Shown piece by piece: positions 9,001 to 33,000 of a DNA stretch of 64,000 nucleotides; within the stretch, counting starts at the first letter, position 1; each line of letters opens with the position of its first letter. The stretch lies in NCBI GenBank assembly GCA_965287045.1, contig OZ336888.1:15934001-15998000 (forward strand), in the 5' to 3' direction. This DNA comes from Carcharhinus amblyrhynchos (taxonomy: Eukaryota). The position numbers are program-made.

Positions 9001-12000
9001 TCTCCTTATACGTCGTAACCTGATATTCATTTCGAGCTATTTGTAATTTAATACACTGCAGCACTTTTTCTCTTACCTATCAACTAGAATGATAGTAAAT
9101 CCCATTGTTTCTGAAATGAAGAGTAATGATGGGTGTATTAATTCACATTGTGACAATCTTGTCACAGTCACAGTGACAATGTTTCAGAATCTTGAATAAT
9201 TAGCTTTCGCAAGCAAACGACATTTGAAACTTATTAAATCTAACATTGTGCTGCTGAGAGCAGGTCAATGATATTGTTATTCCTTTAGTCAACATGCCTG
9301 AGGAACTGTTCTGAAGGGAAACCTGAGAACTTGAGTGAGAATTATTGCTGATCTGCGAGATAGTTTATGGGTCATGTTTGATCCTTACTGAGGTGCAAGC
9401 AATACTTGGTTTGGAATTTGACTAAGATAATGACGCTTATAAACATTTCCTTGGAAATGAATTGCAGTCATCGTGAATAAATACTCTGTCCCAATTTCCA
9501 TGCTGTTTAGGACTAACAAAAACTGTAGGAACTGGAGGATCAACAACTTCAGAGACCACCGTCAGTGGTGAGTTTCAGTTTTGTCGTATCTGCCCCATTA
9601 AATCAATTTGTTTGCTTTGTGAACTAATGTTGTTTCATCTTATCCCTGCTCCCTAGGGCCAATGGCAATGACTGTGACAGGTACACTTCCTGTTTCTGCG
9701 AGTAGAATTACTGGTGAGCAGAGCTTCTTTGATGTTAAAAGCTGCTGTTAGTGTTGTGCTATTTGTAATTTTTAACACTACTGTCAGTCTTGTTACGTTG
9801 GACCTGCATGAGGTAGCAGGGCAGTCGCTCAGATAATTTCCGAATATGTAACTAACAATGATTGAATCTATTCTCAGTGTCATACAACGTTTGCGATGCC
9901 AAGGTGTCTCAGGCAAGGGACATGTAGTTGGTGCATCATTGTATTTTTAGTCCATTCAGATGGAAGGGTTTGAATGTGTACCAGTTGCATTGTTCCACAT
10001 TGCTTTTGGTAAGCATCTTCGTCTGTAAATGTGCTTGTTTTTACTTTGTGCTGATGATAAAATGGTCAACAGATAGGAATTATGATTGCTTCATTTCAGT
10101 TTTTGTATACATTTGCTTCTCAGTGCATAAACTGTAAAAACATGCATGTTGGTATTTCTTATTGCAAACTGATGCATATTCATGTTGACACTGACAGAGC
10201 TTTTCATTGAAGGAAAATTGGAATAGTAAGTGCTATCTGACAGAGTAGATGTCTTGCATTATCAATTATAGCATTCAGAAGAGGACAGTGTTATTGAATA
10301 TGATTATTAATGATAATGCGGATTGTGCGGCATGCCCCTGAAGTCAGCTTGAGACCATGAATTGCAGCATTTGTGCATTTGAAAAGATAGTAATAAGGAA
10401 GACTTTCCAAACATTAATGAGCACTGGTTGAAGCTGGTTTTCACATTCTGCATTGCTGTTTTAGAAGCATATATTGAAATTTAAAATGTTTATATATTGA
10501 CATCTGCATTTTGAAGAGCAAGGATTTTGGTGCTATTAACTTTAGATTGCAAAATCCATTTATTTGCATGAATGATGATTGGTAAGAGATCAAGAGATTT
10601 GAGATGTACAACAAAGCATGGTTTGTCTGTGACCAAAAGGCTGAATAGAAAATATCTCATTTGTAGAATGACAGAGTGTTTTATTTTGGTTTGGCAATAT
10701 GATAGATCTTGCTGGTGAAATTTATATGCATACAGACAGACATAATTATTCCTTCCAACAGAATAAATTCAAAGCTGTAAACTTCAATATCATAATGAAT
10801 TCCTGATCGGAAATGCACTTGTTCAGTGGACTTCTGGGCGGCACGGTAGCGCAGTGGTTAGCACTGCTGCTTCACAGCTCCAGGGTACTGTGTTCGATTC
10901 CCGGCTCGGGTTACTGTATGTGTGAGTTTGCACATTCTCCTCGTGTCTGCGTGGGTTTCCTCCGGGTTCTCCGGTTTCCTCCCACAGTCCAAAGATGTGT
11001 GGGTTAGGTTGATTGGCCATGCTAAGAAATTGCCCCTTAGTGTCCAGGGATGTGTAGGTTAGAAGAATTAGTGGGTATAATATGTAGGGATATGGGGGTA
11101 GGGCCTGGGTGGGATTGTATTCAGTGCAGAAGGGCCTCCTTCTGCACTGTAGGATTCTATGATTCTATGACATACATTATTCTTTCGAAAATAAATGATT
11201 TAGTTACTGTCAAAATTTCACTTTTACTGGCAAATAATATCCAAATAATTTTGAGAAAATTTAGTGCCACATTTGCTGACCCCATGTTGAATTTTTTGTA
11301 ATTGCAAGAACGGTGGCTGGTTTTTGAAGGCTACTTGGTTGAGGAACTGTTCTGAATGCAAGCGCTTCATGTGTGGAAGGGAATGATTAATTTTATAGTT
11401 AGCGTATGGATATCTTCCTTTTTCCTTTGCAATATGGAACGATTTGCCACTAGAGGCTTTGACTGACATGGTAATGCTAAGATGAATCAAAAATCTTGGG
11501 AAACAATTGCAGCATCAATGAATAAATATTCTATACAAATTCTGCTTCTCTTTAGGGCCAACACCATTCACAGGAACTGGAAGACCTACAACTTCAGGGA
11601 CGACGATCAGTGGTGAGTCTTATTTTTGGCATCCTCGTCACCTGAAATTAATTGATTTGATGGGTAGAATAATATTGTTTCAAATTTGCTCGATTGCATT
11701 GGGCCAACAGCAATGACTCCATCAGGTGTACCAAACTGTTTCCGTGACAGTAGTTACTGGTGAGTAGATCTCCTTACACATTATAACCTGATATTCATTT
11801 GGGGAATTTGTAATTTAATACTCTGCAGCATTTTTTCTGATACCTTGGACCAGCAACAATGAGGATAATAGTAAATTCCATGGTTTTTGAAACAAAGATG
11901 GGTGTATTTTCTCATTGTGACAATGATATTTCAGAGCCTTAAATAATTAGCTTTCGCCAGCAAACAACATTGGAAACTTGTGAAATTTATTGTTGTATTG

Positions 12001-30000: not shown

Positions 30001-33000
30001 AGTGAATAAATATCCTGTACAAATTCCGCTTCTCTTTAGGATCGACAGCATTTACAGAAACTGGAAGACCTACAACTTCAGAGACTACTGTCAGCGGTGA
30101 GTGTTGTTTTTGCATCCTCGTCCCCTGCAATTAATTTATTTGACGGGTAGATTAATATTGTTTCAAATTTGCTCAATTACATAGGGCCAACAGCAATGAC
30201 TCCATCAGGTGTTCCAACTGTTTCTGTGACAGCAATTACTGGTGAGTAGATCTCCTTACAAATTATAACCCGATATTCATGTTGGGGAATTTGTAATTTC
30301 ATACTCTGCAGCATTTTTTCTGATACCTTGGACCAGCAACAGTGAGGATGATAGTAAATTCCATTGTTTTTGAAACAAAGATGGGTGTATTTACTCATTG
30401 TGACAATGATATTTCAGAGCCTTAAATAATTAGCTTTCGCACGCAAATAACATTGGAAACTTGTAAAATTTATTGTTGTATTGTTGAGAGCAGGCCAATG
30501 ATATTGTTGTTCCATCAGGCAACATGACTGAGGTACTGTTCTGAAGGCAAACCTCAGAATTGGAGTGAGGGAATTATTGCTGATATGCGAGATAGTACGA
30601 ATCAAACATGATCCATAAACTGAGATGCAAGGAATTCCTGGTTAAGAATTTGACCAAGATCATGTTGCTTATAACTAAACATTTCCTTGGAAATAGATTG
30701 CAGTAGTAGTACATAAATAATCCGTCCCAATTTTCATGCTGTTTAGGACCAAGAGGAACTGGAGGACCAACAACTTCAGAGACCACCATTAGTGGTGAGT
30801 TTCAGTTTATCATACTCACCACATGAAATTAATTTTTGTGCTTCCTGGACTAATGTTATTTCACATTATTTCTGCTCCTAGTCCCAGTGGCAATGACTGT
30901 GACCGGTACAGTTCCTGTTTCTGAGAGCAGAATTACTGGTGAGCAGAGCTTCTTTCTTGTTCAAAGTTGCTGTTGGTTTTTTGCTATTTGTGGTTTTTGG
31001 CTCAACCATACATCTACGGTTACATTGGAGCTGCACGTGGAAGCAGGGCAGTGACTCATAGTTTCCGAAACTGTGATTAACAATGACTGAATGTATTCTC
31101 AGTGCCATATGATGTTTGCGATGCCAGGGTGTCCCTGACAAGGGACATGTTGTTGGTGCGTCATTGCAGTTCACTATATTTTCAGTCCATTCATATCGTT
31201 GATTTTGAGTGTGTACCAGTTGAATTGTTCCATATTGCATTTTGTAAGCATCTTCATGTTAGCACGTGCTTGTTTTTGCTTTGTGGTGTTGGTAGAATGA
31301 TCAACGGATAGAAATTTTCATGAGCAGTCATAGATCCTGCTTTTGACATTCTGCATTGCTTTTTTTTTTAAATTGCTAAATTTAAAATTTAACATATTTT
31401 CATTTGTATTTGAAGAGCTAGGATTTTGGTGGTATTGACTTTATTCTCGTGAATGATGATCGATAAGGCATCTGGAGATTTGAGATGTACAATAATGCAT
31501 GGTTTGTCTGTGACTGAAAAGCCTACTGGAAAGCACCTCATTTGTAGACTAGCAGAATGACAGACTGTTTTATTTTGATTTGACAGTATAGATAAACTTT
31601 GCTGGTGAAATGAATGTGCAGAGAGACAGAAATAATTATTCCCTCCAACAGGATAAATTCAAAGCAGTAAATTTCAATATTGTCATGAATTCCTGATCGG
31701 AAATGCCAATGGGATTTTTGAAAGACACACCTTATTCTTTGGAAAATAAATGATTTAGCCACTGTTAAAATTTCATTTTCACTGGCAAATATTCTCCAAA
31801 TAATTCTGGGAAAATTTAATGCTAAGATGAATGAAAAATCTTGGGAAGCAATTTCACTGTGAATGAGTAAATATTCTCTACAAATTCTGCTTCTCTTTAG
31901 GGCCAACACCATTCACAGGAATTGGAAGACCTACAACTTCAGAGACTACTGTCAGTGGTGAGTATTGTTTTTAGCATCCTCGTCATCTGAAATTAATTGA
32001 TTTGATTGGTACATTAATATTGTTTCAAATTTGCTCGATTGCTTAGGGCCAACAGCAATGACTCCATCAGGTGTACCAACTGTTCCTGAGACAGCAATTA
32101 CTTGTGAGTAGATCTCCTCACACACCATAACCTGATGATAATTTTGAGCAATTTGTAATTTAATACTCTGCAGCATTTTTTCTGTTAACTTCGACCAGTA
32201 ACATCTCGGATCGTAGTAACTCTCATTGTTTCTGACACTGGGAGTAACGACGGGTGTATTAATTCACATTGTCACAATAATATTTCAGAATCTTGAATAA
32301 TTATCTTTCACATGCAAACAACATTTGAAACTTGTAAAACTTAATGTCATGCTGCCGAGAGCAGGTCAATGACATTGTTGTTCCTTCAGTCATCGTACCT
32401 GAGGAACTGTTCTGAAGGGAAACCTCGGAATTTGAGTGAGGGAATTATTGCTGATCTTGAGAATGTTTATGGTTCATGTTTGATCCTTACTGAGGTGCAA
32501 GCAATTACTGGTTAAGAATTTGATTAAGGTAATGGTGCTTATAATTAAACATTTCCTTGGAAATGAATTGCAATAGTAGTGAATTAATGCTCTGTCCAAA
32601 TGTCTATGCTGTTCAGTGCTAAGAAGAACTGCAGGAACTGGAGGACCAATCACTTCAGAGACCACCGTCAGTGGTAAGTTTCAGTTTAATCGTATTCATC
32701 ACGTAAAATTAATTCGTGGGCTTCATGGACTCACCTTATTTCATATTATCTCTGCTCCCTAGGCCCAATGGGAATGACTGTGACCGGCACACTTCCAGTT
32801 TCTGAGAGCAGAATTACTGGTGAGCAGAGCTTCTTTCATGTTATAAGCTGCTGTTAGTTTTGTGCTAGTTGTGATTTTTAACGCTACCCTGGGTCTACAG
32901 TTATTTTGGACCTGCACCAGGTACCAGGGCAGTCACTCAGATAGTTTCTGAGCCTGTGATTAAGAATGATTGAATGTATTCTCAGTGTCATACGATGTTT

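What the first reader, a model, noticed from the sequence alone, without database searches (positions are those of the whole stretch)
11702..30794. Exon indels are filtered by reading frame
Seen: introns carry many indels, but only two exon copies deviate from 57 nt. Unit 12 C (30747-30794) lost exactly 9 nt and keeps its splice sites; unit 6 B (11702-11759) gained 1 nt and has lost its acceptor AG. No nonsense codon seen in any intact copy. This is the best internal evidence that the array is translated.
Basis: partly seen in the sequence, partly recalled or inferred. Interest (0 to 1): 0.65.

Follow-up and report, generated by a model that had tools for sequence, protein, structure and literature searches.

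The report
Mucin-like array of 57-nt exons
The window is one long stretch of a gene in which about ninety tiny 57-base exons each encode one threonine-rich, mucin-like repeat, and the exons and their splice sites have been kept intact while the introns between them decayed, so the array is very probably translated; this kind of gene layout is already known from chicken and frog mucins.

Summary
Both named deviants are real: B 11702-11759 is 58 nt with acceptor tg, and C 30747-30794 is 48 nt with ag/gt kept.

The whole window is a head-to-tail array on the + strand. Its ~2.43-kb units hold four phase 1-1 exons (A-D): 90 copies, of which 86 are 57 nt. Only one frame is open in all copies. It reads as 54% Pro+Thr+Ser with no Cys.

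- **Indels:** introns carry 153 events in 2231 consensus columns. The 228 exon columns carry 2, against 15.6 expected (P=2e-5).
- **Splice sites:** 5 of 356 splice dinucleotide sites are mutated, against 32 expected (P=1e-9).
- **Substitutions:** nonsynonymous variants are depleted relative to introns; synonymous ones are not.
- **Weak tests:** pairwise dN/dS does not single out the frame, and the mod-3 argument rests on two events.

Best reading: a multi-exon PTS (mucin) domain under frame- and splice-preserving selection, like chicken Muc13 or Xenopus MucXS. Gene identity and expression could not be checked. This is a new member of a known kind, of modest interest.

The parts
1..64000 (+). 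Head-to-tail array of ~2.43-kb units, each with four 57-nt exons (A, B, C, D). It runs off both ends of the window.
   Evidence: 90 exon copies, all on the + strand; first copy cut at base 1, last exon at 63846-63902
1..20 (+). exon A, cut by the window start
110..166 (+). exon B, 57 nt, ag/gt
684..740 (+). exon C, 57 nt, ag/gt
828..884 (+). exon D, 57 nt, ag/gt
2242..2298 (+). exon A, 57 nt, ag/gt
2388..2444 (+). exon B, 57 nt, ag/gt
2959..3015 (+). exon C, 57 nt, ag/gt
3104..3160 (+). exon D, 57 nt, ag/gt
4677..4733 (+). exon A, 57 nt, ag/gt
4823..4879 (+). exon B, 57 nt, ag/gt
5394..5450 (+). exon C, 57 nt, ag/gt
5540..5596 (+). exon D, 57 nt, ag/gt; the next unit lacks A-B
7091..7116 (+). 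Remnant of exon C. Only the last ~10-26 nt and the donor survive; the acceptor and 5' part are replaced by a palindromic rearrangement (~7060-7100). Boundaries approximate.
7206..7262 (+). exon D, 57 nt, ag/gt
8789..8845 (+). exon A, 57 nt, ag/gt
8935..8991 (+). exon B, 57 nt, ag/gt
9511..9567 (+). exon C, 57 nt, ag/gt
9657..9713 (+). exon D, 57 nt, ag/gt
11702..11759 (+). Exon B, 58 nt (+1 nt frameshift), acceptor tg. Probably a dead, skipped copy.
12265..12321 (+). exon C, 57 nt, ag/gt
12409..12465 (+). exon D, 57 nt, ag/gt
13979..14035 (+). exon A, 57 nt, ag/gt
14125..14181 (+). exon B, 57 nt, ag/gt
14695..14751 (+). exon C, 57 nt, ag/gt
14841..14897 (+). exon D, 57 nt, ag/gt
16415..16471 (+). 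exon A, 57 nt, ag/gt
16561..16617 (+). exon B, 57 nt, ag/gt
17131..17187 (+). exon C, 57 nt, ag/gt
17277..17333 (+). exon D, 57 nt, ag/gt
18839..18895 (+). exon A, 57 nt, ag/gt
18984..19040 (+). exon B, 57 nt, ag/gt
19522..19578 (+). exon C, 57 nt, ag/gt
19666..19722 (+). exon D, 57 nt, ag/gt
20576..25211 (-). Retrotransposon (LINE-type) inserted antisense in a D->A intron. It has an esterase-like ORF1, endonuclease and reverse transcriptase; the RT is interrupted by one in-frame stop.
25842..25898 (+). exon A, 57 nt, ag/gt
25988..26044 (+). exon B, 57 nt, ag/gt
26561..26617 (+). exon C, 57 nt, ag/gt
26706..26762 (+). exon D, 57 nt, ag/gt; the next unit lacks A-B
28317..28373 (+). exon C, 57 nt, ag/gt
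28463..28519 (+). exon D, 57 nt, ag/gt
30185..30241 (+). exon B, 57 nt, ag/gt
30747..30794 (+). exon C, 48 nt (in-frame 9-nt loss), ag/gt kept, frame open
30882..30938 (+). exon D, 57 nt, ag/gt
31901..31957 (+). exon A, 57 nt, ag/gt
32047..32103 (+). exon B, 57 nt, ag/gt (last base T, so the junction codon is Leu)
32617..32673 (+). exon C, 57 nt, ag/gt
32763..32819 (+). exon D, 57 nt, ag/gt
35110..35166 (+). exon A, 57 nt, ag/gt
35256..35312 (+). exon B, 57 nt, ag/gt
35825..35881 (+). exon C, 57 nt, ag/gt
35971..36027 (+). exon D, 57 nt, ag/gt
37209..37265 (+). exon A, 57 nt, ag/gt
37355..37411 (+). exon B, 57 nt, acceptor lost (cg)
37678..37734 (+). exon C, 57 nt, ag/gt
37824..37880 (+). exon D, 57 nt, ag/gt
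40058..40114 (+). exon A, 57 nt, ag/gt
40204..40260 (+). exon B, 57 nt, ag/gt (donor gtgatt)
40753..40809 (+). exon C, 57 nt, ag/gt
40897..40953 (+). exon D, 57 nt, ag/gt
42673..42729 (+). exon A, 57 nt, ag/gt
42819..42875 (+). exon B, 57 nt, ag/gt; the following B->C intron is cut down to 79 nt
42955..43011 (+). exon C, 57 nt, ag/gt
43101..43157 (+). exon D, 57 nt, ag/gt
44660..44716 (+). exon A, 57 nt, ag/gt
44806..44862 (+). exon B, 57 nt, ag/gt
45377..45433 (+). exon C, 57 nt, ag/gt
45522..45578 (+). exon D, 57 nt, ag/gt
47112..47168 (+). exon A, 57 nt, ag/gt
47258..47314 (+). exon B, 57 nt, ag/gt
47821..47877 (+). exon C, 57 nt, ag/gt
47965..48021 (+). exon D, 57 nt, ag/gt
49533..49589 (+). 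exon A, 57 nt, ag/gt
49679..49735 (+). exon B, 57 nt, ag/gt
50248..50304 (+). exon C, 57 nt, ag/gt
50394..50450 (+). exon D, 57 nt, ag/gt
53414..53470 (+). exon A, 57 nt, ag/gt
53560..53616 (+). exon B, 57 nt, acceptor lost (gg)
55681..55737 (+). exon C, 57 nt, ag/gt
55827..55883 (+). exon D, 57 nt, ag/gt; the next unit lacks A-B
58529..58585 (+). exon C, 57 nt, ag/gt
58674..58730 (+). exon D, 57 nt, ag/gt (the exon inside the 41-aa search query 58643-58765)
60264..60320 (+). exon A, 57 nt, ag/gt
60410..60466 (+). exon B, 57 nt, ag/gt
60980..61036 (+). exon C, 57 nt, ag/gt
61126..61182 (+). exon D, 57 nt, ag/gt
63008..63064 (+). exon A, 57 nt, ag/gt
63154..63210 (+). exon B, 57 nt, acceptor lost (cg)
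63701..63757 (+). exon C, 57 nt, acceptor lost (tg)
63846..63902 (+). exon D, 57 nt, ag/gt; last exon in the window

Best explanation
The window is an internal piece, more than 64 kb long, of one animal gene. By CpG depletion and transposon content the genome looks vertebrate, and I do not take it for human. The piece encodes a mucin-type Pro/Thr/Ser-rich (PTS) domain, one 19-residue repeat per 57-nt exon.

Shown:
- The four exon types A-D alternate in a ~2.43-kb unit. A resembles C and B resembles D, so an older two-exon module was doubled.
- Every exon is 19 codons long and lies between phase-1 introns. The split codon reads Gly at 81 of 89 junctions.
- Exon length, splice dinucleotides and nonsynonymous sites are depleted of change relative to the introns of the same units.

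Inferred mechanism:
- Any exon can be added, lost or skipped without changing the frame.
- The array grows and shrinks by unequal recombination between units, with breakpoints falling mostly in the 90% that is intron.
- Introns absorb indels, large deletions and transposon insertions freely.
- A frameshifting indel in a spliced exon would truncate the protein and is removed by selection. An in-frame loss (the 48-nt C copy) is tolerated.
- A copy that loses its acceptor is simply skipped and can then decay (the 58-nt B copy).

Also inferred and not shown: transcription, splicing, O-glycosylation, and which mucin this is.
For: Anatomy:
- 90 exon copies, all on the + strand; 86 are 57 nt.
- 83 of 88 full-size copies have an ag acceptor and 90 of 90 have a gt donor.
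- Pyrimidine tracts are 62-78% Y.

Frame:
- Only offset 2 is free of stops in all 90 copies. The class consensuses have 3 and 2 stops in the other two frames.
- That frame is 54% P+T+S (T 29.5%), with 0 Cys over 1491 codons of 83 intact exons.
- 0 of 20,000 shuffles and 1 of 20,000 random intron sets reached 50% PTS in any frame.

Indels:
- 2 events in 228 exon columns against 153 in 2231 intron columns. Expected 15.6, P=2.2e-5; resampled intron windows gave P=2e-5.
- The result holds with a second alignment (148 events, P=3.5e-5) and with homopolymer-context events removed (P=7e-5).
- Frameshifting events in splice-competent copies: 0 observed, 10.6 expected.

Splice sites: 5 of 356 dinucleotide positions mutated against 32 expected at the intron per-copy deviation of 0.090 (P=1.4e-9).

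Substitutions:
- Pairwise diversity is 0.094 in exons and 0.145 in introns; codon positions 1/2/3 give 0.087/0.079/0.118.
- Nonsynonymous variants are below intron rates: tv 25/298 against 910/4462 (P=6e-8) and ts 46/147 against 964/2231 (P=0.004).
- Synonymous variants are not below intron rates (tv 18/116, ts 28/69, not significant).
- The four exons fall in the lowest 0.4-5% of intron 57-column windows for diversity.

Age: units are 78-97.5% identical to their nearest relative, and that relative is usually not the neighbour. The copies have therefore diverged independently for a long time.

Precedent: the chicken Muc13 PTS domain has at least 12 repeats of 20 aa, one per exon (PMC1552070, section 8 read). 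The Xenopus Otogl/MucXS mucin domain is multiexonic (PMC5789918, passages read).
Against: - No transcript, protein or orthologue could be examined.
- No signal peptide or mucin-defining flanking domain lies in the window.
- Pairwise NG86 dN/dS is 0.65 in the proposed frame and 0.59/0.73 in the other two, so it does not identify the frame. Per exon class it ranges from 0.31 to 1.19.
- The synonymous-versus-nonsynonymous contrast within exons is weak (tv ratio 0.54, P=0.047; ts ratio 0.77, P=0.22).
- P/T/S codons are not better protected than other codons (27/152 against 33/199, P=0.78).
- The short introns are also poor in indels: 6 in 178 columns against 12.7 expected from the long introns (P=0.03), and the A->B intron has 1 in 89. 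Against that baseline alone the exon deficit is only P=0.018.
- One intron patch has lower diversity (0.081) than any exon.
- Exons contain no homopolymer runs of 4 or more, while 6.7% of intron consensus does, so part of the deficit is mutational.
- SIC event counts treat related copies as one event but remain approximate.
- Searching with a 41-aa stretch holding one exon found no related protein.
Confidence: 0.85

Rival explanations
1. The array was coding while it expanded, but the gene is now a pseudogene or this part is no longer expressed. The conservation signals are historical.
For: 6 of 89 in-window copies are damaged: 5 have lost the acceptor and 1 is a remnant. Amino-acid-level constraint is weak. 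No expression data are available. No matching protein turned up in the libraries searched.
Against: 83 of 89 copies are still intact after about 6-15% divergence between units. 90 of 90 donors are intact. There is no stop in the frame and no frameshift in a splice-competent copy, against 10.6 expected. A long-dead array would have accumulated these at intron rates. All damage seen is of the frame-neutral kind, where a whole exon is skipped.
Confidence: 0.07
2. The low exon indel count is mainly a mutational effect and not selection on a reading frame. Exon sequence lacks indel-prone runs, or the compact exon-short-intron-exon blocks are cold spots or are homogenised by gene conversion.
For: Exons have 0% of bases in homopolymer runs of 4 or more, against 6.7% in introns. 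The A->B intron has 1 indel event in 89 columns. Short introns overall have 6 against 12.7 expected.
Against: Only 22 of the 71 one- or two-base intron events lie in homopolymer context. Removing them still leaves 14.4 expected against 2 observed (P=7e-5). This reading does not explain the 6-fold deficit of splice dinucleotide mutations. It also does not explain why nonsynonymous but not synonymous variants are depleted, or why the one open frame is 54% PTS.
Confidence: 0.05
3. The exons are transcribed and spliced but not translated (a repetitive non-coding RNA or UTR). Selection acts on splicing signals and exon definition only.
For: The strongest signal is on splice sites. dN/dS does not discriminate between frames. 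Exons A and C are open in all three frames in most copies.
Against: Exon length is held at exactly 57 nt in 86 of 90 copies, and the one length change in an intact copy is 9 nt. One frame is open across all four classes and all copies, and it has mucin-like composition never reached by shuffles. Third codon positions are the most variable. 0 of 18 possible stop variants are seen.
Confidence: 0.03

Closest known systems
Chicken Muc13 PTS domain (Lang, Hansson & Samuelsson 2006, PMC1552070; abstract, passages and section 8 read)
   Same: The PTS tandem repeats are split so that each short exon encodes one repeat unit: 20 aa there, 19 aa here. The authors also report a zebrafish Muc13 homologue with a multi-exon PTS domain and suggest the layout is ancestral.
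   Different: At least 12 repeats are reported there. Here there are 90 exon copies of four alternating types in 64 kb, and neither end is in view. Muc13 identity (SEA, EGF, transmembrane domains, neighbour HEG) cannot be tested because no flanking exons are in the window.
Xenopus tropicalis Otogl / MucXS skin mucin (Dubaissi et al. 2018, PMC5789918; passages read)
   Same: It is a gel-forming mucin whose central repetitive mucin domain is multiexonic, unlike the single large exon of mammalian mucins.
   Different: MucXS alternates 39 Cys-rich with 34 PTS subdomains. The array here has no cysteine at all in 1491 codons and no second, non-PTS exon type.
Mammalian single-exon VNTR mucin domains, such as MUC1 and MUC7 (PMC1552070 section 8; PMC4997351 and PMC9417175 seen as search listing and abstract start only)
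   Same: They are PTS-rich tandem repeats whose copy number changes by recombination. The sequence is weakly conserved, but composition and frame are kept.
   Different: There the repeats sit inside one exon, so every indel that is not a multiple of 3 breaks the protein. Here the repeats are separated by 87-1500-nt introns. The longest open stretch through any exon in the PTS frame is 99 codons. Whole-exon loss or skipping is therefore frame-neutral.
Other genes built from many short symmetric exons: the 54-bp exons of fibrillar collagens and the titin PEVK exons (recalled, from no call)
   Same: They have repeated short exons of 3n length and uniform intron phase, so exon number can vary without a frameshift.
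   Different: These are unrelated proteins with different compositions. The resemblance is in gene architecture only.

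Membership tests
Mucin-type PTS tandem-repeat domain | Translated sequence rich in Pro, Thr and Ser | tested here: met
   54.1% P+T+S (T 29.5%, P 13.5%, S 11.0%) over 1491 full codons of 83 intact exons. 0 of 20,000 shuffles reached 50%.
Mucin-type PTS tandem-repeat domain | Peptide unit repeated in tandem | tested here: met
   Four 19-residue types are repeated 21-24 times each in a fixed order.
Mucin-type PTS tandem-repeat domain | Dense O-glycosylation of the repeats | not testable with these tools
   Needs biochemistry. It is only inferred here from the Thr/Ser content.
Mucin-type PTS tandem-repeat domain | Secreted or membrane protein context (signal peptide; VWD/CK or SEA/TM domains) | not testable with these tools
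   The array runs off both ends of the window. No collection of eukaryotic genomes was available to fetch the flanks.
Exon-per-repeat PTS domain (chicken Muc13 type) | [quoted passage not shown] | tested here: met
   One 19-codon repeat per exon, ag/gt flanks, phase 1-1, Gly at 81 of 89 split codons.
Exon-per-repeat PTS domain (chicken Muc13 type) | Transcript evidence for the splicing pattern (an EST in chicken) | not testable with these tools
   No transcript data were on hand.
Muc13 orthologue | SEA and EGF domains, transmembrane helix, cytoplasmic tail; gene next to HEG | not testable with these tools
   All of this lies outside the window.
Single-exon VNTR mucin domain (mammalian type) | All PTS repeats lie within one large exon / one continuous ORF | tested here: not met
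   The longest open stretch through any exon in the PTS frame is 99 codons. The only + strand ORF of 150 codons or more lies inside the LINE insert.

The most novel reading that the evidence does not exclude
This may be by far the largest exon-per-repeat mucin domain seen so far: at least 83 usable 57-nt cassette exons in 64 kb, with neither end reached. In such a gene, frame-keeping is partly delegated to the spliceosome. Damaged repeats are discarded by acceptor loss and exon skipping. The length of the glycosylated domain could be tuned within one animal by the choice of cassette exons, as Lang et al. speculated for chicken Muc13. The length-invariant 87-89-nt introns would then pair A with B and C with D as splicing units.
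Probability: 0.25. Interest if true: 0.5.

Novelty: new member of a known kind. Interest (0 to 1): 0.3.

Why it matters
Mucin PTS domains are usually single huge exons that are hard to assemble and to study. An array in which every repeat is its own exon offers an internal control: the introns share each exon's genealogy, so selection on frame, splice sites and residues can be measured from one genome alone. Here that control shows what is actually conserved in a PTS domain. Length in codons, splice sites and composition are held; the exact sequence is only weakly held. If the source is an early-branching vertebrate, as the repeat content suggests from recall, it would support the proposal of Lang et al. 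(PMC1552070) that the multi-exon layout is ancestral. It is useful for annotation, because gene predictors tend to miss such arrays, but it is not a new principle.

Tried and rejected
- Tandem Repeats Finder found nothing, because the unit (~2.4 kb) exceeds its longest period of 500.
- An unaltered 41-aa open stretch holding one D exon (58643-58765) found 4 word-sharing candidates and no hit at E<=0.01 among proteins of 73-2000 aa. A giant mucin longer than 2000 aa would not have been searched.
- The same stretch against 1.84 billion representatives gave one hit, P0001 (E=3e-6, 10 weak stretches). It is a 1898-aa repeat protein with PKD-like, cohesin and Por secretion tail domains. That makes it bacterial-type and a chance match to a repeat, so I rejected it.
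- Rfam at gathering thresholds gave 0 matches and ARAGORN gave 0 tRNAs.
- NG86 dN/dS does not discriminate between frames.
- A test for extra protection of P/T/S codons showed none.
- The least diverse intron patch was checked as a possible fifth exon and has stops in all six frames.
- Transposon inserts: 14 alignment segments of at least 100 nt fall in 8 long introns (7 D->A/D->C, 1 B->C), with none in exons or short introns. With so few insertions this is uninformative.
- Literature searches for 'mucin / PTS domain / small exons' and '57 bp / exons / mucin-like / tandem / introns' returned 0 papers. 'mucin / shark / tandem repeat / exons' returned nothing relevant.
- No structure or complex prediction was run, because a disordered PTS repeat gives nothing to fold.

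Full report
**What is there.** The window (64,000 nt, no N) is a single head-to-tail array on the + strand. A self-comparison with four seed exons and their flanks gave 165 matches in 90 clusters, all on the plus strand. Class-wise alignment fixed the boundaries. There are 21 A, 21 B, 24 C and 24 D copies. The order is A - intron 88-89 nt - B - intron ~513 nt - C - intron 87-89 nt - D - intron ~1510 nt. A resembles C and B resembles D at about 70-80%, so the ~2.43-kb unit is itself an old doubling of a two-exon module. Three units lack A-B (D->C introns at 5597-7090, 26763-28316 and 55884-58528). Tandem Repeats Finder reports nothing because the period exceeds 500.

**Checking the observation.**
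- 86 of the 90 copies are exactly 57 nt.
- B 11702-11759 is 58 nt, with one extra base relative to the 20 other B copies. It is preceded by tg and followed by gtgagt.
- C 30747-30794 is 48 nt and keeps ag and gtgagt.
- The other two deviants are an A copy cut by the window start (1-20) and a C remnant at about 7091-7116. There, a short palindrome (~7060-7100) has replaced the acceptor and the 5' part of the exon, leaving only its last bases and the donor.
- In total, 83 of 88 full-size copies have ag and 90 of 90 donors are gt.
- All five acceptor losses hit the A of AG. All five lie in the two classes with the weaker pyrimidine tracts (B 0.62 and C 0.65, against 0.78 for A and D).
- The frame that skips the first two bases has no stop in any of the 90 copies. 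The class consensuses carry 3 and 2 stops in the other two frames.

**Is it more than chance?** I aligned each intron class and counted indels by simple indel coding, where each distinct gap interval counts once and shared ancestry is therefore not counted repeatedly.
- Introns: 153 events in 2231 consensus columns (A->B 1/89, B->C 33/514, C->D 5/89, D->A/C 114/1539). A second alignment setting gave 148.
- Exons: 228 columns hold 2 events against 15.6 expected. Poisson P(<=2)=2.2e-5, or P(<=3)=1.3e-4 if the remnant is counted. Drawing four random 57-column intron windows gave a sum of <=2 in 2e-5 of 200,000 draws.
- Singleton events only: expected 10.0, P=0.0027.
- With the 22 one- or two-base events in homopolymer context removed (exons have no run of 4 or more): expected 14.4, P=7e-5.
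- The weakest version uses only the two short introns as baseline: expected 7.7, P=0.018. These short introns are themselves indel-poor, with 6 events against 12.7 expected from the long introns (P=0.03).
- Of the 126 intron events of 30 nt or less, 16 (13%) are multiples of 3. About 10.6 frameshifting events were therefore expected in splice-competent exon copies, and none is seen.
- The mod-3 pattern itself rests on two events: a 9-nt loss in an intact copy, and a 1-nt gain in one of the 5 acceptor-less copies of 88.

**Other lines of evidence.**
- *Splice dinucleotides.* 5 of 356 positions differ from ag/gt, where 32 are expected at the intron per-copy deviation of 0.090 (P=1.4e-9). This is stronger than the indel argument.
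- *Diversity.* Pairwise diversity is 0.145 in introns and 0.094 in exons, with codon positions 1/2/3 at 0.087/0.079/0.118. The four exons lie in the lowest 0.4-5% of 2007 intron 57-column windows.
- *Variant classes.* I counted which of all possible single-base variants are present in at least one copy. Synonymous variants match the intron rate: ts 28/69 against 964/2231 and tv 18/116 against 910/4462, both not significant. Nonsynonymous variants are depleted: ts 46/147 (P=0.004) and tv 25/298 (P=6e-8). None of the 18 possible stop variants is present (P=0.016 at the intron rate).

**Results against or neutral.**
- The direct synonymous-versus-nonsynonymous contrast is weak (tv P=0.047, ts P=0.22).
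- Pairwise NG86 dN/dS is 0.65 in this frame but 0.59 and 0.73 in the other two, so it does not pick out the frame.
- P/T/S codons are no better protected than others.
- One intron patch, at about consensus offset 1063 of the D->A intron, is less diverse (0.081) than any exon, although it has stops in all six frames.

**What it encodes.**
- The 83 intact exons give 1491 full codons: 29.5% Thr, 13.5% Pro, 11.0% Ser, 10.7% Gly, with no Cys, Trp, Tyr, His, Asp or Asn.
- No shuffle of the exon consensuses (0 of 20,000) reached 50% P+T+S in any frame, and only 1 of 20,000 random sets of intron pieces did.
- Introns interrupt a codon after its first base (phase 1-1). The split codon reads Gly at 81 of 89 junctions.
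- The repeats read approximately G-PTPFTGTGRPTTSETTVS / G-PTAMTPSGVPTVPETAIT / G-PTRTAGTGGPTTSETTIS / G-PMGMTVTGTLPVSESRIT.
- This is the composition of a mucin-type PTS domain. Dense O-glycosylation is inferred from that composition and not shown.

**How it most likely works.**
- Shown: exon length in codons, splice sites and, weakly, residues are conserved relative to introns of the same genealogy.
- Shown: units are old. Nearest-relative identity is 78-97.5%, mostly 84-94%, and the nearest relative is usually a non-adjacent unit.
- Shown: large deletions (B->C introns cut to 79 and 266 nt) and at least 9 transposon-like inserts lie in long introns and spare the exons.
- Inferred: every exon is a 3n, phase-symmetric cassette, so unequal recombination between units and the skipping of any one exon are frame-neutral.
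- Inferred: selection therefore needs to remove only frameshifts and stops in exons that are still spliced. A copy that loses its acceptor drops out of the mRNA and may then decay, which is the state of the 58-nt B copy. Which of its two lesions came first cannot be told.
- Speculation: three of the four acceptor-less B copies keep an AG nine bases into the exon that would be an in-frame substitute acceptor.

**Source organism.**
- CpG observed/expected is 0.34 with GpC at 1.07, as in methylated vertebrate-type genomes.
- The 4.6-kb GC-rich insert at 20576-25211 is an antisense LINE with an esterase-like ORF1, an endonuclease and a reverse transcriptase. The RT is broken by one in-frame stop.
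- A ~330-nt element at 10839-11166 has relatives at four other places in the window. Its core motif is one I recall from fish, especially cartilaginous fish, repeats. That attribution is recall and comes from no call.
- I do not take the contig for human.
- The excess of G over C and of T over A on the + strand throughout the array fits transcription of that strand. The rule is recalled, and because the units are copies of one another the signal is not independent.

**Comparison with what is known.**
- Lang, Hansson & Samuelsson (PMC1552070; abstract, passages and section 8 read) described the chicken Muc13 PTS domain. It has at least 12 repeats of 20 aa, each in its own exon, with EST support. 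They mention a zebrafish homologue with the same layout, propose that it is ancestral, and suggest that splicing could vary PTS length.
- Dubaissi et al. (PMC5789918; passages read) report a multiexonic mucin domain in Xenopus Otogl/MucXS, alternating with Cys-rich subdomains.
- Lang et al. 2016 (PMC4948705; passages read) list mucins of Callorhinchus milii but, in the passages seen, say nothing on exon structure.
- The present array meets the tested features of an exon-per-repeat PTS domain. It fails the single-exon VNTR layout.
- Whether it is Muc13, a gel-forming mucin or something else is untestable from this window.

**What stayed unchecked.**
- The scan's rules ask that a spliced model be searched exon by exon and that the joined step be left out. 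I built and searched no joined model.
- A single exon (18 full codons) is below the tools' minimum.
- An unaltered 41-aa open stretch holding one D exon found nothing among proteins of 73-2000 aa. Among 1.84 billion representatives it found only a spurious bacterial repeat protein. So whether this gene is already annotated is unknown.
- No eukaryotic genome or transcript collection was available. The prokaryote, phage, plasmid and E. coli collections were not searched because they are irrelevant.
- Rfam and tRNA scans were empty.

**Verdict.** It is further supported by splice-site conservation and by the composition of the only open frame. The thing itself is a multi-exon mucin-like PTS array: a known kind of gene architecture, here at unusually large scale. 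Confidence in this reading is 0.85 and interest is 0.3.

Noticed in passing
window 20576-25211 (- strand): A nearly full-length LINE-type retrotransposon is inserted antisense in a D->A intron. Its ORFs match an OSK/GDSL esterase-like domain (24225-25160), endonuclease plus the start of the RT (22357-24273) and the rest of the RT (21343-22356). The two RT parts are contiguous in one frame and separated by a single stop.
   Followed up: partly
window 10839-11166 (+); related pieces at 20637-20808, 20983-21083, 41852-42019 and 51057-51140 (all -): A short interspersed repeat about 330 nt long and 52% GC has five copies or fragments in the long introns. I recall its core motif from fish repeats, but that attribution comes from no call.
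   Followed up: partly
window 7060-7116: A perfect short palindrome (an arm of about 19 nt, a 3-nt centre, then the reverse complement) sits where the acceptor and 5' part of a C exon should be. It looks like a hairpin or inversion-type rearrangement that killed this exon copy.
   Followed up: partly
all A->B introns (e.g. 11613-11701) and C->D introns (e.g. 12322-12408): The short introns are almost invariant in length: 88-89 nt in 21 of 21 and 87-89 nt in 24 of 24. They have half the indel density of the long introns (6 against 12.7 expected, P=0.03). This suggests a length constraint, for instance pairing of A with B and C with D by intron definition.
   Followed up: partly
B 11702, 37355, 53560, 63154; C 63701: All five acceptor losses are changes of the A of AG, and all fall in the two exon classes with the weaker pyrimidine tracts. 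Three of the four B copies keep an AG nine bases into the exon that would be an in-frame alternative acceptor.
   Followed up: partly
D->A introns, consensus offset ~1063-1120 (e.g. about 13530-13600): An AT-rich patch about 70 nt long is less diverse among units (pi 0.081) than any exon, and it has stops in all six frames. It may be a conserved intronic element or simply chance.
   Followed up: partly
window 42876-42954 and 37412-37677: Two B->C introns are cut down from ~513 nt to 79 and 266 nt by deletions that stop short of both flanking exons.
   Followed up: no
D->C introns 5597-7090, 26763-28316, 55884-58528: Three units lack the A-B exon pair. Their D->C intron is about as long as a normal D->A intron, as expected from recombination between the homologous regions upstream of A and of C.
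   Followed up: no
The D exons with their flanks are 99% identical.
   Followed up: no
whole window: CpG observed/expected is 0.34 while GpC is 1.07. The + strand has G>C and T>A throughout the array, and the skew reverses inside the GC-rich transposon inserts.
   Followed up: no
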